Source: a virus. Taken from it: DNA of 64,000 nt. The number at the start of each line of letters is the position of its first letter. Within the stretch, counting starts at the first letter, position 1. Below, in pieces: positions 12,488-55,825 of this stretch. The stretch lies in UHGV virus genome UHGV-0141727; one strand, 5' to 3'. A program made the translations under genes and the position numbers. The notes beneath the pieces were generated by a model. That model saw only the letters and a program-made list of their open reading frames with translations, was not told where the DNA came from and searched no databases.

Positions 12488-13851
12488 TAGTCATCCTCCG
12501 GCTGGTCTATCGCAATCTCGTCATCTACAGCATCAAAACCGGTATCCCCCGCGTCATAATCACCGTAGATATCAGCCGTGGCGGAAGGGTCTATATTCAG
12601 GTCTTCATCATTGGCCTCAAATTCACCGGCTTTACGTTCTCCGTTCCGGTCGTAATCCCCCATCCCAAGCCTATCAACGATTTTCGCTACTTCAGCCCGG
12701 CGTTGTGCAAGCCATTGTGGGAGTCCAGCTTGTTGCTCGGCAAACTGCTTCGCCTCTTTATCCAGTTGCTCATCATCAACATCGTTAACGTCAGAAACCG
12801 GAGGCTCCAGAAGTGAGATCGCTTTTGCCGCTCGTGCTGCCAGGATAGCCGGGACACTGACGCCCTGCCGCTCGATATATTCAGCAACGCCTATATCGTC
12901 CAGCTCCTCGCGCTCACGCATACGTATAGCGGCGGCGATAACTCTGGCGGCGCGTGCGTCAGCGCCAATGCGATACTCAATCTCTTTGCCACGCTGCTCG
13001 GCTTGCAGGCGAGTAATCGCCAGTTTTTCTCTGGCCTCAGCCTCTCTGAATGCCTGCTGGCGCGCGCCCTGCGCAAGTTTTTCATCCCCCTGGCGTAGCT
13101 TCTGCTCGGTCTGGTAGATGGCAGCCAACCTACTGATAAAGTCATTCATGTAGTAGGCCGCATCGCTTATTAGGCCGAGAAGACGCTGCCCTGGGTGCAT
13201 TCCCTCTGGCTGTGTATCGCCGAGGGCGTCAATCTCTTCCTGTAGTCGTTCCGCTTCCTGGTCAACGATGGCCTGATACTGAATTGCTCGTTCCTGCGCC
13301 ATCTGTATCGCAAGTCGTAAATGTTCTGTCGCGCCGTTCTTCATCATCTCACGGGCGACGTTGGTGGCAGGCAAAGTGGCGCTTTGAGCTGATGAGTCAG
13401 GGATCATTTGCAATGATCCCATGTTTCGTTGGGCTTTTTCGCTGCTTTTAGGGATCATTTCCCCCATTTCATCACAAAATGATCCCCTTACATCCTTGTG
13501 TATCTTGTTGTTATTACTTGACTTTTCTTTGTGATCCGCATTTTGTTTTTGCGGCATGGCGCGGAATCGTCCACCAGCTAACGATTTGTCAGTTTTTGTA
13601 AATTCTGTGCTTTTATCAGCCTTTTTTTGCTCTTTTTTTGGGCTTGCGGCGCTGCTTTTCGCGCGCTGTTTTGTGCTTTTCCCGGCAGCCTTAGCTTTCG
13701 CTTTAACCTCATTTTTTTTCATATTGAGATGCTTTCTGGCGGTGTTAAAGCTGAGGTCATGCTGCTCGCAATATTCCTTTATGGTGATCCCGGTTTCTTC
13801 TCTTAACTCCAGGAACTTAGCTCGATGCGCTTCCCAATTAATTAACGTCAT
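12487..13851 (-). CDS. pacA: terminase small subunit / pac-recognition protein (P1 PacA-type)
   Basis: N-terminal HTH, lysine-rich linker; coupled to pacB; GATC-rich pac-like repeats inside the gene. Confidence 0.6.
   Translation of the reverse strand: MTLINWEAHRAKFLELREETGITIKEYCEQHDLSFNTARKHLNMKKNEVKAKAKAAGKSTKQRAKSSAASPKKEQKKADKSTEFTKTDKSLAGGRFRAMPQKQNADHKEKSSNNNKIHKDVRGSFCDEMGEMIPKSSEKAQRNMGSLQMIPDSSAQSATLPATNVAREMMKNGATEHLRLAIQMAQERAIQYQAIVDQEAERLQEEIDALGDTQPEGMHPGQRLLGLISDAAYYMNDFISRLAAIYQTEQKLRQGDEKLAQGARQQAFREAEAREKLAITRLQAEQRGKEIEYRIGADARAARVIAAAIRMREREELDDIGVAEYIERQGVSVPAILAARAAKAISLLEPPVSDVNDVDDEQLDKEAKQFAEQQAGLPQWLAQRRAEVAKIVDRLGMGDYDRNGERKAGEFEANDEDLNIDPSATADIYGDYDAGDTGFDAVDDEIAIDQPEDD
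13400..13538. other. candidate pac site: five GATC-containing ATGATCC/GGATCAT elements within about 140 bp inside pacA
   Basis: GATC at 13403, 13415, 13454, 13481, 13534 in a repeated flank context. Confidence 0.45.
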
Positions 13852-18184: not shown

Positions 18185-19393
18185 TTATTTCCAGTAAAGA
18201 TTTTCAACTCCACCGTTCTTCTTATCCCACTCGTTCGCCCATACCCGGCAAGCATCAATTATTTCCTGACGGCGATCGCCCTGCATGAACGGAATGCTTT
18301 CATGAAAGCTGCTTGGAATGCAGGCCACACTGAACACTGTATCAAACTCAGTCTGCTTGATTGCCTCCAACGTCTCTGGACGCATTTTCAATTCGTCGAT
18401 CGGTGCATCCTTAGAGTCCATAATCCGGCGATGCAAGCGTGGAAAATCCGTTTCAAGGTACGCCATAATTTTATCTGCCAGACATTCGTCTATGTCGGTA
18501 TTCCAGTCAGTTTCGAAGCCAGGAATTCGGTAGTAAAGCGGCGTTCCCCATACTGACGGGATCACATCCATCGTCAGCAGGCGGCTGGTTCTGATTTGCT
18601 GATGGTAATTTGCCGTCAGCAACGCTTCGCCACGTTGCCCAGTCTCCGCGACCAGACCATGCGGAAACTCATGGATATAGGCAATAGCTTCTCTTCCGTC
18701 ATACATTAGCGGGAATGTCTCTGGCCTTTGCCCCATGCCACAGGCGCGATTCAGATCATGACCAAGCTCTGAGCACTCTCGTTTCAATGTTTCAATAATG
18801 CTCTGCGCCGCTGCTAACTTTTTACGCAGTGTGACGAGTTCGCCTTGATACTCAACGCATTGCTGATTTAGCTTGGTTAAACGCTCTTTTAGTTCCCGAC
18901 GCTCTCTTTTCAGCGTGCGGTTATCTTTCTCCGCAACATCCAGTCGTTTTGTCAGGCTTGGCGGATAGTCTTTTTTGTAACGACTCAAATCGACTTCAGC
19001 AGATTTGCGCAGTGTATTTGCCTGCTCAAGACGCGCCTCCAGATTGCCGATCTCATTACGCATATTCGCGGCAAATTGATTAACTGCATCCCCCAGGCTT
19101 TCAACTGTCGCTGATACACCAGTGACTTGAGAAAAACGGATCAAGCCATCATTAACGGCTTGCTGATATTCCTCAAACTGATCCACCAGCTTATTGTAAT
19201 CAACTGCCCCATCATCAAGGAGCTGGTTGATTTCCGCCACCAGGTTATCTGTAGTGGCAATGACGCTCTCATGCAGTCGCTTTGACAGGTCATCGCCCGG
19301 ATTTCGTTTCTGTATAAGCGCGATTTGTGTCCGCAGCGTTTCAATTGCGGTTGAGATGATCTCCAGGCTTGATGATTCTACTTGCTGACTCAT
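18185..19393 (-). CDS. hypothetical protein (402 aa), central coiled-coil plus C-terminal domain of unknown function
   Basis: Heptad-rich charged segment about residues 100-220; operator-like motifs at both ends. Confidence 0.55.
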   Translation of the reverse strand: MSQQVESSSLEIISTAIETLRTQIALIQKRNPGDDLSKRLHESVIATTDNLVAEINQLLDDGAVDYNKLVDQFEEYQQAVNDGLIRFSQVTGVSATVESLGDAVNQFAANMRNEIGNLEARLEQANTLRKSAEVDLSRYKKDYPPSLTKRLDVAEKDNRTLKRERRELKERLTKLNQQCVEYQGELVTLRKKLAAAQSIIETLKRECSELGHDLNRACGMGQRPETFPLMYDGREAIAYIHEFPHGLVAETGQRGEALLTANYHQQIRTSRLLTMDVIPSVWGTPLYYRIPGFETDWNTDIDECLADKIMAYLETDFPRLHRRIMDSKDAPIDELKMRPETLEAIKQTEFDTVFSVACIPSSFHESIPFMQGDRRQEIIDACRVWANEWDKKNGGVENLYWK

Positions 19394-31092: not shown

Positions 31093-32052
31093 TCATCCCC
31101 GAAAGCCCTCCGGAATTGACCAGTCTTCCCGGTCAAATTCAGACCGATAGCCACGCTGTTTCATCTGGTCAAATGCTTCATTGATGGTTGCACATCCCTG
31201 GGAACCAGAATAATCCATAGAGAAATCCAGGGCGCTGGATCGTTTGGGCTTATTCACCGTGGTAGCACTACGTATCCATGCAAATTTTTTTGCCAGTTTT
31301 TCAGCGGTACGATACAGAGCCTGCCGTTTTGCGTACCCCTCGTCTGAACGACGCTTTGCAGCTCTCGCTTTTGCCGCCGCCAAACAGTGGTTGGTATGTT
31401 CTTCCCTGATTACTGTTTTTTTATCCAGCAAGCCATTATCCGCTTGAGAACTATCTGCTGGTGAAGCCTTTGGCTGAACCGCGCATGATCTTTCTCTTCT
31501 TTTGGCTATAGAGTGACTCTTATTTTCTATTGGCTGTTCATTTTGAACATGGGGGGACTTGTTCAATTTGAACAGGGGGTGCCCAGTTTCAAAAAAATAA
31601 CGAACCTTTGAAATCAACTGCTTAACCAGTTTTGTGGCGTTGGCAAATTTGATGCCCTGCTTACTCCCTATCTCCATTGCTACATGAATGAAGTGGAGAA
31701 ATTGTGTTGTAAACCGGTACACGTTACACACCTGAGCATTGTTATTCGCTACCTGATGCTGCTTAACAAGCATTCCGCACTTCGTCGCTTCGGTAAATGC
31801 CCGGCGCACAGTAGAAATACTGCGTCCTGTAATCTCGGACATATCAGCATATGAGCGACGGATCATGTATTCATCGGTAGCTCCTGCCAGGTTGGCGAAC
31901 TCGGCAATAATGGCGCTATGTGAAGGGGAAAGAAAACCGCTATGACGAGCAAAAAAACTCAACTGATGACCTTTGATTTTTTTGTGGTATTCAGTGTTGT
32001 TTTTATACTCAGAAGTGTTGAAAGTTACTGGAACTGAATTTAAAATACTCAT
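31093..32052 (-). CDS. hypothetical DNA-binding protein (winged-helix-like); regulator or replication protein
   Basis: 319 aa; MSEITGRSISTVRRAFTEATKCGML is HTH-like; basic C-terminal half. Confidence 0.35.
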   Translation of the reverse strand: MSILNSVPVTFNTSEYKNNTEYHKKIKGHQLSFFARHSGFLSPSHSAIIAEFANLAGATDEYMIRRSYADMSEITGRSISTVRRAFTEATKCGMLVKQHQVANNNAQVCNVYRFTTQFLHFIHVAMEIGSKQGIKFANATKLVKQLISKVRYFFETGHPLFKLNKSPHVQNEQPIENKSHSIAKRRERSCAVQPKASPADSSQADNGLLDKKTVIREEHTNHCLAAAKARAAKRRSDEGYAKRQALYRTAEKLAKKFAWIRSATTVNKPKRSSALDFSMDYSGSQGCATINEAFDQMKQRGYRSEFDREDWSIPEGFRG

Positions 32053-34948: not shown

Positions 34949-35180
34949 GATTCACCGCAAAAGGTTTCCGATTTCGTGGCAGCTTATCCAGTGTGTGATT
35001 TCATCAGTAATTTTTCGTTGTTTTCACTATATGCTGATGTTTTTTCATATGCGGAAATGCTTTTCCAAAAACGCAACCGCCAAACAAAGAAGTTATGTTT
35101 ATAAACATTTTTGTTGTGTTTTATATCTTTTGTGTTATTATTCTTGTCGCCCATGATGGATAAATTGCATAAGGAAACTT

Positions 35181-35363
35181 GTGAAGTATTCAGAGTTCAA
35201 ACGCTGGTTAATCCAGCAAGGGGCAGAGTTCAGGAAAGCGCCAGGTGGCGGCAGTCATCAGAAAGTGAACCTGAACGGAAAGCGGTCGGTTTTCCCGGAC
35301 CACGGTTCAAAGGAAATGCCTGAACCGCTACGCAAGAAAATAATGAAGGACCTGGGGCTTTAA
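35181..35363 (+). CDS. hicA: HicA-family toxin (mRNA interferase), GTG start
   Basis: 60 aa, ...GGGSHQKV...FPDHGSKEMPEPLRKKIMKDLGL matches the HicA pattern. Confidence 0.8.
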   Translation: MKYSEFKRWLIQQGAEFRKAPGGGSHQKVNLNGKRSVFPDHGSKEMPEPLRKKIMKDLGL

Positions 35364-35393
35364 GCCCCAGCCTTTTTCACTAGGAGCTTCTCT

Positions 35394-35825
35394 ATGTTTA
35401 ACTATCCGGTAAAACTGGAGCGCGACGACAATACCGGCGCGTATGTCGTATCATGCCGCGACCTACCATTGTTTAATTCCGTGGGTGACTCAGTTGAAGA
35501 AGCGTTGCTTGAGGCTGGTTATGGATTGGTCGCAGCGGTTGCGATTGAGATTGAAGAACGCCGACCTGTTCCCACTGGTAGCGAGCCAAAAGAAGGTGAG
35601 TACGTTGTCTCTTTGCCAGTGCTACCAGCAATGAAGGCTGCACTCCACAACGCGATGATAGAAACCGGCACACGCAAAGCAGAGTTGGCGCGCAAACTCG
35701 GAAAAAATGGAACACAGATTGATCGGCTTCTCGACGTCGAACATTCATCGAAAGTTGAAACTGTCGAGTTGGCACTGCATCAACTGAATAAAAATATCGC
35801 CGTATCTGTCACACCAATGCGGTGA
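35394..35825 (+). CDS. hicB: HicB-family antitoxin with C-terminal HTH
   Basis: 143 aa; C-terminal GTRKAELARKLGKNGTQIDRLL; immediately downstream of hicA. Confidence 0.75.
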   Translation: MFNYPVKLERDDNTGAYVVSCRDLPLFNSVGDSVEEALLEAGYGLVAAVAIEIEERRPVPTGSEPKEGEYVVSLPVLPAMKAALHNAMIETGTRKAELARKLGKNGTQIDRLLDVEHSSKVETVELALHQLNKNIAVSVTPMR

Positions 35826-35937
35826 CTGCTCCCCGCCCTGGCTGGGCGAGGATTTACGGGGTATTTGTTAAAAACGCTCTATTCAAAGAAGAAATACCGA
35901 ATCCCCCGGAGGTTATCCGGGGTGTCCGGTCGCCAGG

Positions 35938-37323
35938 TCAGGTTTCCAGCCCAAAATCGCTTTGTTCTGTTTTGGCTTCGAACATCGTGAAGTTAAGCCC
36001 TTTCCCCTCTCCATGTTCCAGTTCAATCTCATTAGAAACAGCGGTCAAAATACTACGTAGATCGACATCTCCACCGCCGAACATATCGCCCAACGCCTGC
36101 TGTTTATGAATCAGTTCGTCGTTGATTTTTTGTGCCATTTTTTTGAATGCAGCCCCCATGCGCTTCGCGCTTCGATTATTTGCCACGATGAATAGCGCCA
36201 ACGCCTCAGCTTCCGGCGTGCTATCACCGAAGAGTCCGCGCTGGGCTATCACCTCTTCCACTGCCTGACCGTTGTCTTTGGCTTCACGAACAAGGTTAAT
36301 CGCGTCCTGGAGTGCTGCTATAGCCTGTTTATCCAGACCGTTCACCTGCTCTATACCATCAACCAGACCAGTTACAGCATCATGATGTGCATCGCCAGAA
36401 ATCGACTGCATTTGCGCAAAGTCACTGGCTGCTGTATTAAGCGCGGTCAGGATATTGCGCATTTCCGGATCCGGTTCTTCCGCCACAAGCCGAACAAGTC
36501 GCTCATCCTTATAGGCTTTGGCAAAAATCGCATTCTGAATGCGATCGATAAGCTGTTTCGTTGGACGTCCATCGGCTGTAAGCAAACCTGCCGTCGCGGT
36601 ATCGCCTATTTCGTGCAAAAACGCACGAATAAACGCATCATTGGACCGCGCCAGTAGATTGCCATCATCTGAAGGATTAAATAGCGCCATGACGCTCTCA
36701 GTGAGAAATTGCGCATCCGCATACGCTTTCTCACTTGCAGCCATCTCTTGCAGATCGCTGATGTTTGAGTCGCGTGCAAATTGAGCACGATCAACGTCAG
36801 TGAGGCGCTCGCGAACCAGTACAGGCATCACCATTGCCCTGACGTCTTCGGGATTAAGGCCAAACTCTTTAGCGTGATCGATAAGATATTGTCGGTAATC
36901 TTCAGCCTGCCCTTGTTCATAAGCACGCCAGATTCCCATGCTTCGACCATTACCAGACTCAACGACATTATCCGGACCAACAATCGGGGAACCATGACTA
37001 CTCATACCCGAATCAGTGAGTTGTGCCGGGCGTAAATTGGCGGCGATACGGTTAACCTGGAGCTTACTTGACAGTCGGGTGCGATCGCGAGGCTGGAGTT
37101 CCTCCGGAAATGACGGATTTATACTTCCGTCCAGGTTGTTAGAAATGATGAGCTTTTTGGCATCAATAACCTTGAACGCTGTTTTAACTTCGTCGCCTTT
37201 GCTGGTGACGACATAGCTGCTACGCCCCAACTTCGTCTCTTGCTTTTCAAGAGATGACACCACAGCGATAACCCCCTCAATGTTCGCTGCGGCTAGAAGT
37301 GCTGATGTTACGTTTTGAGTCAC
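35938..37323 (-). CDS. hypothetical protein (461 aa) in the DarA-like operon
   Basis: Long ORF co-directional with the holin/DarA-like genes. Confidence 0.3.
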   Translation of the reverse strand: MTQNVTSALLAAANIEGVIAVVSSLEKQETKLGRSSYVVTSKGDEVKTAFKVIDAKKLIISNNLDGSINPSFPEELQPRDRTRLSSKLQVNRIAANLRPAQLTDSGMSSHGSPIVGPDNVVESGNGRSMGIWRAYEQGQAEDYRQYLIDHAKEFGLNPEDVRAMVMPVLVRERLTDVDRAQFARDSNISDLQEMAASEKAYADAQFLTESVMALFNPSDDGNLLARSNDAFIRAFLHEIGDTATAGLLTADGRPTKQLIDRIQNAIFAKAYKDERLVRLVAEEPDPEMRNILTALNTAASDFAQMQSISGDAHHDAVTGLVDGIEQVNGLDKQAIAALQDAINLVREAKDNGQAVEEVIAQRGLFGDSTPEAEALALFIVANNRSAKRMGAAFKKMAQKINDELIHKQQALGDMFGGGDVDLRSILTAVSNEIELEHGEGKGLNFTMFEAKTEQSDFGLET

Positions 37324-37414
37324 AATTAACCACCTTTCTGTAAAAAAGGCAGTGTAAAAAGTGTGTTATTTCGCTGACTATTTTAAGAAGAAAGGGGCAT
37401 TCTGCCCCTCTCTT

Positions 37415-52438: not shown

Positions 52439-53260
52439 TTAATAATGGTTAGCCATCCATTCAGATCTAATTGATGGGATAAACTCTCTATTGAGAAATG
52501 GGGCGTACAGCGTGGTAGTCACGTCTGCACCCTCCTTAGCGTTTTTGCAGCGTTGTGGCGGTAGGATCAGGCGGCTTGTGCCTCGTTCAATAGCCATTTT
52601 TAAGCCGTGGCGAAGGTCTTTCTGCATGAGCTGAATGCGAGCTACCAGAGGGGTAAACTCGGTTTCCAGTGCCATGTTTTCAATGATATCGAATCGTCTG
52701 TTTGCAGCTTGTGTGAAGTCTTCTGGATCGTCGTTCAGAGATGTACACAAGGCCAACTCAGCTATGCGGAGACGAGCAACCTCAGCACTGTACTCTGGAG
52801 TTTTCATATCAGGCAAAGTGGCGCGCATACGTTCAAGCAATTCAGCGCCTTTCCCTGTTAATGGTTTAAGCGTCCACTCGGTTGGTACTCCGTTTATAGG
52901 GACCATAGTTTTAATAAACGGCGGGACAGTCAGGATTTCTACCGTTTCGGCAAGGTCTGAAAGGTTAATATCTGCGTGATGAACGTTTCCACAGTGACCA
53001 CACTCGTATGAGTAAGTCATTACGGCATCTGGTCTGGAATTGACAAAGATCCACCAAAGCGCGGTTCTGCGATCCTGAACTGTCCAGTTTGAGCTGTCGT
53101 TAATTTCGCCGTCTTGCATGGCGTTGAGGTATTCTGTTGTGGTTGCCTCGTCTTCTGCCGGATTGATGTCTGAATATTTCAGGGCATCTTTCACAGTAGG
53201 TGCATGAAACTGAATTTCTATTTCAGGCTGTGAAGGCAATGGGAATTTGGGAATGTTCAA
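52439..53260 (-). CDS. hypothetical tail-region protein with CGHCG motif; start reassigned to TTG at 53260
   Basis: GGAGGA 4 nt upstream of TTG at 53260; the longer TTG-initiated ORF to 53386 would overlap origin motifs. Confidence 0.35.
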   Translation of the reverse strand: MNIPKFPLPSQPEIEIQFHAPTVKDALKYSDINPAEDEATTTEYLNAMQDGEINDSSNWTVQDRRTALWWIFVNSRPDAVMTYSYECGHCGNVHHADINLSDLAETVEILTVPPFIKTMVPINGVPTEWTLKPLTGKGAELLERMRATLPDMKTPEYSAEVARLRIAELALCTSLNDDPEDFTQAANRRFDIIENMALETEFTPLVARIQLMQKDLRHGLKMAIERGTSRLILPPQRCKNAKEGADVTTTLYAPFLNREFIPSIRSEWMANHY

Positions 53261-53331
53261 GGATTCCTCCAGAAAAGTCGGTACTCGTTTGGCTGGAGGA
53301 TAGGGAGTGTGTGATTTTGACTTTAACCTAT

Positions 53332-53401
53332 TTATCCACAGGGTAGATCCAATAAATAGATCCCAAAGAGAACCAGTAAGATCCAAAGAAGATCCCGGAT
53401 C
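53332..53401. other. origin elements: DnaA box TTATCCACA plus five GATC sites
   Basis: TTATCCACA at 53332-53340; GATC at 53346, 53359, 53381, 53391, 53398. Confidence 0.6.
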
Positions 53402-53438
53402 GCTGCGAGCCGCGCCATCACTGGCCTAAATGGAGATC

Positions 53439-53544
53439 AACATTGACTATGTGCGATTTAATGTTGACTATGTGCGATTTTATGTTGACTGTACGCGATT
53501 TAATGTTGACTATATGCGATATAAACATTGACTGTATGCGATAA
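53439..53544 (+). repeat. five contiguous 21-bp direct iterons (consensus ATGTTGACTATGTGCGATTTA)
   Basis: Head-to-tail units at 53439, 53461, 53482, 53503, 53524; second DnaA box TGTGGATAA at 53566-53574. Confidence 0.75.
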
Positions 53545-53622
53545 TTCTCTCAGCCCTCAGACGGCTGTGGATAAGTATCTTTCATTTGGCTATAAAGCCC
53601 CGTCAATCAAGGAAATAACAGG

Positions 53623-54507
53623 ATGGTAGATGACAAAAAAGGCTTTCTGAACGTTGAGGAAATATCAGGGAATACCGGAGAAATCCACAGCTTAAAGCCT
53701 AACAATAATAGCACTATTCAGCCGATAGCTTTGTTGCGGCTTGGGGTGTTTGTTCCCACATTGAAATCTACCAGTGTTGCTTTACGTCGCAAGAACGCCG
53801 GTTTAACTAACTCCACTGATGCGACAGAAGAACTGTCCAGCCTGAAGATTGTAGAGCAGGAAGGGTATCAGGGTATTGAGATTCATGGGCCACGTCTGGA
53901 TATGGATACTGATTTTAAGGTGTGGATAGGCATTACATCTGCATTGTTTGACTATAAACCAGATAATGATGGTGTGATCACCCTGACATTCTCTGAATTT
54001 GTGGATCGTTGCGGTTATCCAAGGAAGCGGCTGTCCAAGGCTTTTCGCAAGAGCATTGGCGACTCTCTAACGCGTATTCAGCAGACGTTGCTGAAGTTCA
54101 ACTTGCCCACCAGCAAAGAACATGTTCGTTATATCCAGATGAATTTATTGGCATTTAGTGAACTTGATACTGAAAATGACATTATAAGAATCCAACCGCA
54201 GAAGCAGTTGTCTGAGTTGTATTACGTTGACTATAAGCGAATATTGAAGCTCAAAATGCTCGATAAACTTGGCAGGAAAGAGACAGCCAAGGTGCTTTAT
54301 ACGTTTTTCGAAGCGTTACCTTCAAACCCTGCGCCAGTGAGTATTGAGCGCCTTCGCGCCAGATTGAACCTCAAATCATCGGTTAGCGTTCAGAACAGTG
54401 TGATTCGTAAAGCCATGAAAGACTTGGAAGCTGTTGAATATCTTAAATTTTCAGAGATAAAGAATGGTCGGAAAATAGGTTTCCAGATCCATAAACGAAA
54501 TCCATAA
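53623..54507 (+). CDS. repA: iteron-binding replication initiator (RepA-like)
   Basis: 294 aa flanked by iteron clusters; segments such as IQPIALLRLGVFVP and GPRLDMDTDFKVWIG resemble P1 RepA as recalled. Confidence 0.7.
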   Translation: MVDDKKGFLNVEEISGNTGEIHSLKPNNNSTIQPIALLRLGVFVPTLKSTSVALRRKNAGLTNSTDATEELSSLKIVEQEGYQGIEIHGPRLDMDTDFKVWIGITSALFDYKPDNDGVITLTFSEFVDRCGYPRKRLSKAFRKSIGDSLTRIQQTLLKFNLPTSKEHVRYIQMNLLAFSELDTENDIIRIQPQKQLSELYYVDYKRILKLKMLDKLGRKETAKVLYTFFEALPSNPAPVSIERLRARLNLKSSVSVQNSVIRKAMKDLEAVEYLKFSEIKNGRKIGFQIHKRNP

Positions 54508-54737
54508 CATTGACTGTGTGCGATTCCAAGCGTTGACTATACGCGACAAACATTGACGCTGGCGGATTTAGTTATTAACTTTTTCACATGATCAATGGAT
54601 AAACCAGCTATTTCATTGAGTATTTGTCGCTTATAGTCAATCTTTCCTCATTTCTTGTCGTGTGTAGTCAATGTTTTGTGATCGGGATCGAGTACAGTCA
54701 ACATTAGTTGTAAGCCATTTCGCCTATAGTCAACATT
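54507..54737. repeat. downstream iteron cluster (incA-like), mixed orientation
   Basis: Direct units at 54507, 54529, 54550; inverted units near 54627, 54658, 54689, 54721. Confidence 0.65.
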
Positions 54738-54754
54738 TCTCCATCAGCAGTCTT

Positions 54755-55044
54755 AAGGGCAATTTCTACACCTCTCTGTAGGTGTAGGATTTGCCCTTAA
54801 AGATGGGAGATTGAGGGCAATTCTTACACCATTAGTGAGTTGGTTGGAGCTTTAACGGCTAACATCATTTGTAATTTATTGATTAATAAGTAATGTGTAA
54901 AAATCACCCTCAGATAGCATCGTATGTTATAGCTATTTTTATAGCACACCTGTTAAGTGTTTTTTGAATGTAACTCATTGATTTTGTTGTGATGTGTAAA
55001 AAATGCCATCATTGACGTAAACAGCAGGTGTAGAAATTGCCCTC
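54755..55044. repeat. second repeat family (A/G)AGGGCAATTTCTACACC, four copies around an AT-rich core
   Basis: Copies at 54755, 54781 (inverted, imperfect), 54813, 55027 (inverted); TGTGTAAAAA twice in the core. Confidence 0.5.
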
Positions 55045-55087
55045 AAGTTTGCCCCTTCCCCACCTTCTCGCACTTTAATATTGCATT

Positions 55088-55825
55088 TCAAAACTTGATC
55101 ACGTTGCTGGCGGCGCTTTTAAGTGCGCTTGTTGCTAAACCAGCAGCTCCATTGACTAATGCGGACAGGCCGGAACCAGCAGATGTGTATCGCTGGAACG
55201 TGATCGGATAGGACAAGAATTCGGACACCTGATCACGTGAGCGGCTGATCTCTCCTATCTGAGTAGGAAATACACGCATTTCCTCTTCCAGCTCTTTCCC
55301 GCCTTCCTGTGTAACGCGGTATAGCCTGATATTCATGAGATAATCTGGCGGCAGGTTTAGCGTACCATCGCTATTGGTTACACGGGCGCGGCGCTCCTTG
55401 AACCAATTCATTATTTTGCCGTCTTCTGTGTCTCTGACCGTCATTGTTACCGGTCCGGCGGTTACGTGCGTTGGCTTATTGAACTCGACGCTACCAATGA
55501 TTTTGCTTTCTGTTTCAATATTCCCGCTACTGTAAGTTATGTCCTTAACGAACATATCAAAGCCGCTTAATCCGTCTACATCTACCGTCCACTGCCAGCC
55601 CTGGGCATAGCGGATACGCATAGCCGTAGCAACTACGTTCTTTCCGTAAGCGATGTCATTGCCATAGCTCCCACTAACGCCACTGCCAGACACCGCTCTA
55701 TCCAGAATGTCGCTGATAAGGTTGCTGGTGAATGATTTCGCGCTAAACGATACCGCACTGGCTAGCGTTTGCGTTGCAGCACTAAAAATACTCACGTAGC
55801 CCTCCGTGTTAAAAAATGGTAGCAC
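55088..55825 (-). CDS. phage structural (tail) protein, 245 aa
   Basis: Synteny in the tail/sheath cluster. Confidence 0.3.
   Translation of the reverse strand: MLPFFNTEGYVSIFSAATQTLASAVSFSAKSFTSNLISDILDRAVSGSGVSGSYGNDIAYGKNVVATAMRIRYAQGWQWTVDVDGLSGFDMFVKDITYSSGNIETESKIIGSVEFNKPTHVTAGPVTMTVRDTEDGKIMNWFKERRARVTNSDGTLNLPPDYLMNIRLYRVTQEGGKELEEEMRVFPTQIGEISRSRDQVSEFLSYPITFQRYTSAGSGLSALVNGAAGLATSALKSAASNVIKF

What the first reader, a model, noticed from the sequence alone, without database searches (positions are those of the whole stretch)
53332..54737. oriR-type replicon (DnaA boxes, GATC cluster, iterons, repA, iterons) embedded in the tail-gene block
The architecture TTATCCACA, five GATC sites, five 21-bp iterons, a second DnaA box, repA, then a mixed-orientation iteron cluster mirrors the P1 oriR/incC/repA/incA layout. 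The iteron sequence differs from P1 as I recall it, and the module sits between tail genes rather than beside par genes. No parA/parB was found in the window.
Basis: partly seen in the sequence, partly recalled or inferred. Interest (0 to 1): 0.45.

Follow-up and report, generated by a model that had tools for sequence, protein, structure and literature searches.

The report
Swapped-in P1-type plasmid replicon cassette
This is the low-copy plasmid replication module of a D6-like phage-plasmid of E. coli: an ordinary P1-family origin, initiator gene and copy-control repeats that replaced the lineage's usual replicon at the same spot between two tail genes and left some of the old replicon's binding sites behind.

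Summary
The only two perfect DnaA boxes in the 64 kb flank an array of five 21-bp-phased iterons. Beside them is the densest GATC cluster in the window. An intact 294-aa repA follows, then 3 direct and 4 inverted iterons. The geometry matches P1 oriR/incC/repA/incA almost base for base.

RepA is 41% identical to P1 RepA and 85% identical to the p0111/RCS47-type RepA of P1-like phage-plasmids. It uses the p0111-type iteron consensus, not the IncY one.

The position between tail genes is not odd. The window is a D6-like phage-plasmid, and D6 and its relatives keep their plasmid replicon in this same slot, between the pmgB and tub homologues. The ParM-type partition genes lie about 1.2 kb beyond the window's end.

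The modestly new part is the history. Positions 53318-54742 are a 1,425-bp cassette that replaced the lineage's usual RepE-like replicon. The last four codons of the old rep gene and six orphan RepE-type iterons (54753-55046) remain.

Across D6-like elements the slot holds three alternative replicons: RepE-like (most common), IncY-like and this one (rarest).

Verdict: a real, almost certainly functional, known kind of replicon; a catalogued but uncharacterised subtype. Interest is low to moderate.

The parts
52439..53263 (-). Left flank: pmgB-like tail morphogenesis gene (TTG start), part of the D6-type backbone.
   Evidence: 81% nt identity to D6 orf41, annotated 'similar to P1 gene pmgB'. 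98.2% nt identity to pEC361_3 up to 53317.
53318..54742 (+). Replicon cassette of 1,425 bp (origin, repA and control iterons) that replaces the 1,070-bp RepE-type replicon found in close relatives.
   Evidence: Homology to pEC361_3 stops at 53317 and resumes at 54743, at 98.2% and 99.8% identity in the two flanks. Homology to RCS47 oriR-repA-incA runs 53332-54569 at 77%, and the iterons continue to 54738.
53332..53340 (+). DnaA box 1 (TTATCCACA) at the left end of the origin.
   Evidence: One of only two perfect boxes in the window. It aligns with the second of P1's two tandem left-hand boxes.
53346..53401 (.). Five GATC (Dam) sites in AGATCC[A/C]-type heptamers. Presumed methylation-dependent opening and SeqA-sequestration region.
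   Evidence: Densest GATC cluster in the window. The heptamers match P1 and RCS47 in sequence and order. P1 annotates its counterparts as Dam sites 1-5 of oriR.
53439..53545 (+). Five origin iterons (incC-like), with cores at 53443, 53464, 53485, 53506 and 53528.
   Evidence: Spacing of 21, 21, 21 and 22 bp, identical to P1.
53566..53574 (-). DnaA box 2 (perfect, inverted) between the iterons and repA.
53623..54507 (+). repA, a 294-aa iteron-binding initiator with tandem winged-helix domains.
   Evidence: 85% aa identity to RCS47/SJ46 RepA, 45% to SSU5 and 41% to P1/P7. Pfam Rep3_C scores 26.5, above its 21.1 cutoff. The AF2 model has its best PDB fold matches to RctB domains 2-3, RepE, pi, pPS10 RepA WH1 and TrfA.
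54227..54240 (+). Iteron-like site inside repA (TTGACTATAAGCGA).
   Evidence: One mismatch to the consensus. Identical at the same codons in RCS47 repA. Its function is unknown.
54505..54566 (+). Three direct control iterons (proximal part of the incA-like locus). The first overlaps the repA stop codon.
   Evidence: Cores at 54510, 54533 and 54553, the last degenerate. P1 and RCS47 have the same arrangement.
54627..54738 (-). Four inverted control iterons (distal part of the incA-like locus), spaced 30-32 bp.
   Evidence: Cores at 54627, 54658, 54688 and 54720. P1 has six and RCS47 five inverted copies at about 31-bp spacing.
54743..54757 (+). Remnant of the displaced RepE-type rep gene: its last four codons plus the stop (CAT CAG CAG TCT TAA).
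   Evidence: Aligns with the 3' end of the rep gene of D6 and pEC361_3. CP042620 has the same junction.
54753..55046 (.). Six orphan RepE/D6-type iterons (GGTGTARRATTTGCCCTYAA): 54753(-), 54781(+), 54811(-), 54894(+, weak), 54993(+, weak) and 55027(+).
   Evidence: Same set and layout as the iterons downstream of rep in pEC361_3 and D6. Nowhere else in the window is there a match with 5 or fewer mismatches.
55088..55795 (-). Right flank: tub-like major tail tube gene, part of the D6-type backbone.
   Evidence: Corresponds to D6 orf43, annotated 'major tail tube structural protein, similar to P1 tub'. 99.8% nt identity to pEC361_3.

Best explanation
The segment is the plasmid-prophage maintenance replicon of a D6-like (P1-g2) phage-plasmid. 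It is an iteron replicon of the P1 oriR class and a diverged relative of the p0111/RCS47 subtype.

Inferred mechanism, by homology with P1:
1. RepA monomers load on the five in-phase origin iterons.
2. Host DnaA binds the two flanking boxes.
3. The adjacent Dam-methylated AGATCC heptamer region opens for DnaB loading. Hemimethylated sites are sequestered after firing.
4. RepA bound to the iterons also represses its own promoter.
5. The seven downstream iterons titrate RepA and 'handcuff' the origin, keeping copy number near one.
6. Segregation is done by an unlinked ParM/StbA-type system about 10.5 kb away, outside the window.

History, shown by sequence: the 1,425-bp cassette at 53318-54742 replaced the RepE-like origin and rep gene that normally occupy this slot. 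The last four codons of the old rep gene and its downstream iterons were left as decaying relics.
For: - Anatomy and statistics.
- Homology to P1-family replicons: DNA; protein at 85%, 45% and 41% identity; family-wide invariant residues.
- Match to P1's experimentally annotated oriR features: DnaA site, Dam sites 1-5, incC iterons 14-10 and incA iterons 9-1. The spacings are the same and the GATC heptamers are conserved in order.
- Fold: tandem winged-helix initiators are the only significant PDB matches.
- Replacement: the flanks are 98.2% and 99.8% identical to pEC361_3, which carries a RepE-like rep (NCBIfam RepE, 5e-84) in the slot.
- Likely functional: the ORF is intact. The same cassette at 98.7-98.9% identity is on six circular 93-95.5 kb plasmids among 5,426 complete E. 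coli genomes. The fully inspected one, NZ_CP085065, has no other plasmid initiator, only a separate repL lytic gene.
- Likely origin in a P1-like element: a 76%-identical RepA sits in a P1-type repA-parA-parB-gp23 context.
Against: - There is no experimental evidence for this subtype. As far as I know, not even the p0111 type has been dissected.
- The simple sigma-70 scan found no promoter upstream of repA. Autorepression through iterons is therefore inferred from P1. The only candidate is an extended -10 (TGcGATAAT, 53537-53545) inside iteron 5.
- The control locus has 7 iterons, against 9 in P1.
- Pfam Rep3_N is just below its cutoff (20.4 against 22.4). NCBIfam and the PDB sequence searches gave nothing.
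- Dependence on Dam, DnaA and DnaK/DnaJ/GrpE is extrapolated from P1.
Confidence: 0.85

Rival explanations
1. Reverse history: the P1-family cassette is ancestral to the D6 lineage, and the RepE-like replicon replaced it in the other elements.
For: D6 is a distant P1 relative. D6 itself keeps one IncY-type iteron relic next to tub (L003:18949-18967). So a P1-family replicon probably did occupy the slot earlier in the D6 clade.
Against: The relic in D6 is IncY-type, not the window's iteron type. The window carries the last four codons and six downstream iterons of the RepE-type replicon to the right of its own cassette. That is only explicable if the RepE type was there first. The flanks are 98-99.8% identical to RepE-type carriers, and the window type is by far the rarest: 2 PLSDB records against 110.
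Confidence: 0.04
2. The cassette is a non-functional relic or passenger. The element is maintained by another replicon, by repL or by integration.
For: There is no experimental proof of function, and no consensus promoter was found for repA.
Against: The ORF is intact. All 12 iterons and both DnaA boxes are preserved, and the cassette is conserved at 94.6-98.9% in independent isolates, all on circular plasmids. No other plasmid-type initiator is annotated on the whole 94-kb relative. The displaced RepE-type rep gene is gone.
Confidence: 0.05
3. The retained RepE-type iterons are not mere relics. They are kept as a one-sided incompatibility determinant that titrates the Rep of incoming ancestral-type D6 phage-plasmids and so excludes competitors.
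For: Cloned control iterons of P1 (incA) and F (incC) exert incompatibility; this is established plasmid biology, cited from memory. All carriers of the cassette examined retain at least two or three such iterons.
Against: The orphan array is being eroded by different iteron-to-iteron deletions in different carriers. An 88-bp deletion is found in NZ_CP085065, L009, L010 and L012. A roughly 40-bp deletion is found in L013, and a roughly 58-bp deletion in CP042620. In contrast, RepE-type elements all keep 10 iterons. This looks like neutral decay after a recent swap.
Confidence: 0.15

Closest known systems
p0111-type replicon of P1-like phage-plasmids (RCS47, SJ46, pO111_2; PlasmidFinder 'p0111')
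   Same: - RepA is 85% identical over its full 294 aa.
- The DNA is 77-78% identical from the DnaA box through the third downstream iteron.
- The iteron consensus is the same, WWAYRTTGACTRTRYGCGAT.
- The layout is the same: 5 origin iterons and 3 direct downstream iterons, and even the same intragenic iteron-like site.
- The GATC heptamers are the same.
   Different: - At 78% nt identity it would not be typed as p0111 at the usual thresholds; MOB-suite calls it rep_cluster_2164.
- It has 4 rather than 5 inverted control iterons.
- The right-hand DnaA box is perfect here and has one mismatch in RCS47.
- It sits in a D6-type backbone between tail genes, not next to parA/parB and gene 23.
Bacteriophage P1 plasmid replicon oriR/incC-repA-incA (IncY)
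   Same: - The architecture and geometry are nearly base for base the same: DnaA box, five Dam heptamers, five iterons at 21, 21, 21 and 22 bp, repA, a control locus that begins at the repA stop, then 3 direct followed by inverted iterons at about 31 bp.
- RepA is 41% identical.
- The DnaA box through GATC heptamer stretch is 76.5% identical.
   Different: - The iteron sequence is unrelated, TTGACTRTRYGCGA against ATGTGTGCTGGAGGG, so it is not IncY.
- It has one left DnaA box rather than two tandem ones.
- It has 7 control iterons rather than 9.
- It is not linked to parABS.
Phage D6 orf42 replicon (RepE-like Rep with GGTGTAAGATTTGCCCTCAA iterons) in the pmgB-tub slot
   Same: It occupies exactly the same genomic slot in the same orientation. 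The window still carries that replicon's downstream iterons and the last codons of its rep gene.
   Different: The initiator and iterons are unrelated at sequence level. D6 did not appear in the tblastn search with the window's RepA at E up to 1e-3. The D6-type Rep matches NCBIfam RepE at 5e-84.
RepFIB / SSU5-type RepA replicons of enterobacterial plasmids
   Same: They belong to the same wider RepA family, at about 45% identity over about 96% of the length, with hundreds of homologues.
   Different: They are much more distant than the p0111 type, and those proteins are longer (about 336 aa). Their iterons were not compared here.

Membership tests
P1 oriR-class iteron replicon (RepA, DnaA and Dam dependent) | The initiator is homologous to P1 RepA. 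| tested here: met
   tblastn gives 41.3% identity over residues 24-294 with E = 1e-58 to P1 and P7 RepA. 55 residues are invariant across the 32-sequence RepA-family alignment used for the structure model; P1 RepA was in the parallel 34-sequence alignment.
P1 oriR-class iteron replicon (RepA, DnaA and Dam dependent) | Five directly repeated iterons, phased at two helical turns, lie immediately upstream of repA. | tested here: met
   Cores at 53443, 53464, 53485, 53506 and 53528. The spacing of 21, 21, 21 and 22 bp equals P1's.
P1 oriR-class iteron replicon (RepA, DnaA and Dam dependent) | DnaA boxes lie at the ends of the origin. | tested here: met
   The two perfect TTATCCACA boxes at 53332 (+) and 53566 (-) are the only ones in 64 kb.
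P1 oriR-class iteron replicon (RepA, DnaA and Dam dependent) | A cluster of five GATC heptamer repeats lies between the DnaA box and the iterons. | tested here: met
   53346-53401. The heptamers are conserved in order with P1's annotated Dam sites 1-5.
P1 oriR-class iteron replicon (RepA, DnaA and Dam dependent) | A downstream control locus (incA) has iterons in both orientations and starts at the repA stop codon. | tested here: met
   3 direct and 4 inverted iterons at 54505-54738. P1 has 3 + 6 and RCS47 has 3 + 5.
P1 oriR-class iteron replicon (RepA, DnaA and Dam dependent) | The repA promoter is embedded in the origin iterons (autorepression). | tested here: inconclusive
   The consensus scan found no + strand promoter upstream of repA. 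The only candidate is an extended -10 (TGcGATAAT, 53537-53545) inside iteron 5, read by eye.
P1 oriR-class iteron replicon (RepA, DnaA and Dam dependent) | Autonomous replication that depends on RepA, DnaA, Dam and the DnaK/DnaJ/GrpE chaperones, at a copy number of about 1. | not testable with these tools
   This needs mini-replicon experiments.
IncY incompatibility group (classical P1/P7) | Iterons of the ATGTGTGCTGGAGGG type, recognised by P1 RepA. | tested here: not met
   No P1-type iteron with 4 or fewer mismatches occurs anywhere in the window. The window's iteron consensus is unrelated.
p0111 replicon type (PlasmidFinder) | High nucleotide identity of the rep gene to the pO111_2 / RCS47-type reference. 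The typing threshold of about 95% is quoted from memory. | tested here: not met
   77-78% nt and 85% aa identity to RCS47, SJ46 and 400-odd P1-like plasmids. Nothing fell between 80% and 95% in complete E. coli genomes.
p0111 replicon type (PlasmidFinder) | Shared iteron specificity, which would mean functional incompatibility. | tested here: inconclusive
   The iteron consensus is indistinguishable from RCS47's, which predicts cross-reaction. No genome carried both types, but only about 0.45 co-occurrences are expected by chance.
Rep3/RepE-like winged-helix (WH1-WH2) iteron initiators | A tandem winged-helix fold and the Pfam Rep3 domains. | tested here: met
   Rep3_C scores 26.5, above its 21.1 cutoff. 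Rep3_N scores 20.4, just under its 22.4 cutoff. The AF2 model has pLDDT 74.8 and is good for residues 85-294. Foldseek hits with probability 1.00 are RctB domains 2-3, RepE, pi and pPS10 RepA WH1 (TM 0.6 on WH1).
D6-type (RepE-like) replicon | Presence of the RepE-like rep gene together with its origin iterons. | tested here: not met
   Only the last four codons and the six downstream iterons remain. The gene and the five origin iterons are absent.

The most novel reading that the evidence does not exclude
The pmgB-tub intergenic slot of D6-like phage-plasmids may be a dedicated replicon-exchange site. At least three unrelated or diverged iteron replicons (RepE-like, IncY-like, p0111-like) have successively displaced one another there, each leaving right-hand iterons of its predecessor. 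All share a left boundary within a few bp.

On this reading the retained orphan iterons still act, exerting one-way incompatibility against ancestral-type competitors. Replicon swapping would then be both an escape from incompatibility and a weapon.
Probability: 0.15. Interest if true: 0.55.

Novelty: new member of a known kind. Interest (0 to 1): 0.3.

Why it matters
- Typing: D6-like phage-plasmids are screened in surveillance with the D6 repB and repL genes, and the D6 rep gene is absent from plasmid-typing databases (bioRxiv 10.1101/2025.09.12.675607). Elements like this one carry neither the D6 rep nor a rep gene close enough to be typed as p0111. They can therefore be mis-typed or missed.
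- Compatibility: the iterons predict replication incompatibility with the very common p0111-type P1-like phage-plasmids, and compatibility with IncY P1 and with ordinary D6-type elements. That would shape which phage-plasmids can co-reside.
- Evolution: published work shows IncY/p0111 switching at one position in P1-like elements (PMC7969092, PMC11165635). This case extends it to the D6 subgroup and to transfer between subgroups, with unusually clear junctions and relics that give the direction of the event.
- It does not reveal a new mechanism.

Tried and rejected
- The D6 genome paper (Gilcrease & Casjens 2018) could not be read by DOI or PMC id. I therefore cannot say whether it already describes alternative replicons or relic iterons at this slot.
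- A sequence search of the PDB with RepA gave only noise. NCBIfam gave no hit for RepA.
- The promoter scan found no repA promoter.
- The genome-contig scan with pmgB returned a single locus, a RepE-type element in a mis-binned MAG, and added nothing.
- I looked for a second copy of the cassette or its iterons elsewhere in the window or in the whole relative plasmid, because BLAST reported '2 places'. There is none.
- I looked for an IncY-type iteron relic next to tub in the window, like the one in D6. There is only a weak, unconvincing resemblance at about 55055-55080, with no match at 4 or fewer mismatches, so I do not claim it.
- Co-occurrence of this cassette with p0111-type plasmids in complete E. 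coli genomes was none observed. This is uninformative, because only about 0.45 co-occurrences are expected.
- I considered a lytic origin and rejected it: a repL-like gene lies elsewhere, at 31093-32052 on the - strand.
Full report
**1. Observation**

I read 52.8-55.4 kb directly.

- TTATCCACA occurs only twice in the 64-kb window, at 53332 (+) and 53566 (-).
- Five GATC sites fall within 56 bp (53346-53401). This is the densest GATC cluster in the window.
- Five iterons with core TTGACTRTRYGCGA start at 53443, 53464, 53485, 53506 and 53528.
- An intact 294-codon ORF runs 53623-54507.
- Downstream lie three direct iterons (54510, 54533 and a degenerate one at 54553) and four inverted ones (54627, 54658, 54688, 54720).
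- Twelve of the 13 matches to the iteron pattern in the whole window lie in 53443-54733. About 3.1 are expected by chance, and 0 of 100 shuffles reached 13.

The feature is real and far beyond chance.

**2. What the element is**

The window is a D6-like phage-plasmid.

- 40-64 kb matches Escherichia phage D6 across the tail and head block at about 80% identity.
- It is collinear at 96-99% with the 94-kb circular E. coli plasmid NZ_CP085065.
- The two genes flanking the finding are the homologues of D6 orf41 ('similar to P1 pmgB') and orf43 ('major tail tube, similar to P1 tub').
- D6 has its own putative plasmid initiator, orf42, between these same two genes in the same orientation. So do pEC361_3 and a plasmid of E. 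marmotae.

The 'odd' position inside the tail block is therefore the standard replicon slot of this lineage. Pfeifer et al. already noted that replication and partition genes are separated in the D6 subgroup, P1-g2 (PMC7969092).

The missing par genes are explained. In NZ_CP085065 a ParM/StbA-type pair lies 10.5 kb to the right of repA, which maps about 1.2 kb beyond the window's end.

**3. What kind of replicon it is**

- RepA is 85% identical over its full length to the RepA of RCS47, SJ46 and other P1-like phage-plasmids (the 'p0111' type). It is 45% identical to SSU5-type RepA and 41% to classical P1/P7 RepA.
- In a 5.8-billion-protein search its own 90% cluster has only 16 members. The next relatives are at 85% (381 members), 80% and 76% identity, then about 53% and the broad RepFIB-like family at about 45%.
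- Pfam Rep3_C passes its threshold and Rep3_N just misses.
- An AlphaFold model (pLDDT 74.8; residues 85-294 confident) matches only tandem winged-helix iteron initiators in the PDB: RctB domains 2-3, RepE, pi, pPS10 RepA WH1 and TrfA.

At DNA level the segment 53332-54569 aligns with RCS47 oriR-repA-incA at 77% identity. The stretch from the DnaA box through the GATC heptamers aligns even with P1 oriR, at 76.5%.

I compared the layout with P1's richly annotated record.

| Feature | Window | P1 |
|---|---|---|
| DnaA box to first iteron core | 111 bp | 110 bp |
| Origin iteron spacing | 21, 21, 21, 22 bp | 21, 21, 21, 22 bp |
| First control iteron | overlaps the repA stop codon | overlaps the repA stop codon |
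| Control locus | 3 direct + 4 inverted, about 31 bp apart | 3 direct + 6 inverted, about 31 bp apart |

- RCS47 has 3 direct and 5 inverted control iterons.
- The five AGATCC[A/C]-type heptamers occur in the same order as P1's annotated Dam sites 1-5.
- The iteron sequence is the p0111/RCS47 one and is unrelated to P1's ATGTGTGCTGGAGGG.

**4. How it most likely works**

This is inferred from P1, whose oriR features are annotated. The chaperone, handcuffing and SeqA details are from my own knowledge of the P1 literature.

1. RepA monomers bind the five phased iterons.
2. DnaA binds the boxes at each end.
3. The methylated GATC heptamer region melts.
4. Hemimethylation and SeqA delay re-initiation.
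5. RepA on the iterons represses repA transcription.
6. The seven downstream iterons titrate RepA and pair with the origin to hold copy number near one.

What the sequence shows directly is the full set of cis elements in the right geometry and an intact initiator. What it does not show is the promoter, since the consensus scan found none, and any functional dependence.

Function is nevertheless likely.

- The cassette is conserved at 94.6-98.9% on independent circular plasmids from humans, a wild bird, a monkey and pigs.
- The one such plasmid inspected in full, NZ_CP085065, has no other plasmid-type initiator. It has only a separate lytic repL, which lies at 31093-32052 in the window.

**5. 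The cassette replacement**

pEC361_3 is 98.2% identical to the window up to 53317 and 99.8% identical from 54743 onward. Between those points it has 1,070 bp holding a RepE-like rep (NCBIfam RepE, 5e-84) with its own iterons (GGTGTAAGATTTGCCCTCAA). The window has 1,425 bp of P1-family replicon instead.

The junctions are sharp.

- Left junction: D6-type homology ends at ...AGTGTGTGATTT. After 14 bp of unassigned sequence, RCS47-type homology starts at the DnaA box.
- Right junction: RCS47-type homology ends with the last inverted iterons. D6-type homology resumes with the last four codons and stop of the RepE-type rep gene (CAT CAG CAG TCT TAA).
- To the right, all six downstream RepE-type iterons of pEC361_3 are still present at 54753-55046.

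The direction of the event is therefore clear: the RepE-type replicon was there first.

CP042620 has a much more divergent backbone (tub about 75% nt identity) but the same right junction. This indicates one replacement event followed by spread among D6-like backbones by homologous recombination.

A 76%-identical RepA sits in a P1-type repA-parA-parB-gene 23 context. That is consistent with a P1-like element as the donor lineage.

**6. The slot is polymorphic**

| Collection | RepE-type | Window type | IncY-like type |
|---|---|---|---|
| 22 D6-like IMG/VR contigs found with pmgB | 17 | 2 | 3 |
| PLSDB records | 110 | 2 | 9 (at 95% identity or more) |

- The third type is an IncY-like P1 replicon. 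It is 71% nt identical to P1 oriR-repA and has P1-type iterons arranged as 5 origin, 3 direct and 4 inverted copies.
- D6 and its close relatives keep a single IncY-type iteron next to tub. It aligns with the last control iteron of the IncY-like elements.
- This suggests an earlier IncY-like to RepE-like replacement in that clade.
- In the window's own backbone clade I could not find a convincing IncY relic.

**7. Are the orphan iterons functional?**

Probably not. Carriers of the cassette show three different iteron-to-iteron deletions in this array:
- an 88-bp deletion in NZ_CP085065, L009, L010 and L012;
- a roughly 40-bp deletion in L013;
- a roughly 58-bp deletion in CP042620.

All RepE-type elements, by contrast, keep 10 good iterons. 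This is what neutral decay after a recent swap looks like. A residual one-way incompatibility effect cannot be excluded without experiment.

**8. Comparison with what is known, and novelty**

- The replicon class (P1 oriR) is a textbook system.
- The p0111 and IncY alternatives occupying one position in P1-like elements, with frequent switching between them, are published (PMC7969092; PMC11165635).
- Exchange of rep and par genes between plasmids and phage-plasmids is a published generalisation (PMC10879196).
- A repB gene with iterons in a D6-like plasmid has been noted (PMC6799933).
- This subtype already exists in RefSeq as a 'RepB family' protein and as MOB-suite rep_cluster_2164.

In the literature I could read, I did not find a statement that D6-like elements carry three alternative replicons at the slot, two of them P1-family. 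Nor did I find a description of the junctions and relics that order the events. I could not read the D6 genome paper.

I rate it a new member of a known kind, and interest as low to moderate.

**9. Practical consequence**

By iteron identity the element is predicted to be incompatible with p0111-type P1-like phage-plasmids, and compatible with IncY P1 and with ordinary D6-type elements. Screens that use the D6 repB gene, or p0111 at high identity, would not recognise its replicon.

Noticed in passing
window 54753-55046: Six orphan iterons of the displaced RepE/D6-type replicon remain, four good and two degenerate, in both orientations. The array is complete in this window. Every other carrier of the cassette that I examined has lost part of it through one of three different iteron-to-iteron deletions.
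   Followed up: yes
L003 (phage D6, MF356679) 18949-18967; also L014, L016-L025, L027, L028, L030, L032, L036: D6 and its close relatives keep one P1/IncY-type iteron (CCCTCCAGCACACAT) between their RepE-type iterons and tub. It aligns with the last control iteron of D6-like elements that carry an IncY-like replicon in the slot (L015, L026, L029). This looks like a relic of an earlier replacement.
   Followed up: partly
window 54227-54240: An iteron-like sequence (TTGACTATAAGCGA) lies inside repA. It is identical at the corresponding codons of RCS47 repA, although the genes differ by 22% overall. It could be an internal RepA-binding site or simply a coding constraint.
   Followed up: no
window 13402-13481: This is the second-densest GATC cluster in the window. 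It has four copies of GGGATCATT arranged as two inverted pairs, inside the homologue of the gene annotated 'DNA pacase A subunit' in NZ_CP085065. It may be a Dam-regulated pac-like site, but it differs from the P1 pac hexamers as I recall them.
   Followed up: no
window 31093-32052 (- strand): A 319-aa ORF corresponds to the 'lytic replication protein' (repL-like) of NZ_CP085065. The element therefore has separate lytic and plasmid replicons, as P1 does.
   Followed up: partly
window 53264-53331 and the equivalent positions in L006, L003 and L015: All three alternative cassettes share a left boundary within a few bp, just after AGTGTGTGA(TTT), about 55-75 nt upstream of the TTG start of pmgB. 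This could be a recombination hot spot, or a limit set by the need to keep the pmgB promoter region.
   Followed up: partly
window 35000-37400 compared with NZ_CP085065 56.2-61.3 kb (L033): The window and its closest plasmid relative differ here by a rearrangement or insertion. The relative carries a TnpB-family gene, a HicA toxin gene and neighbouring genes that are only partly matched in the window.
   Followed up: no
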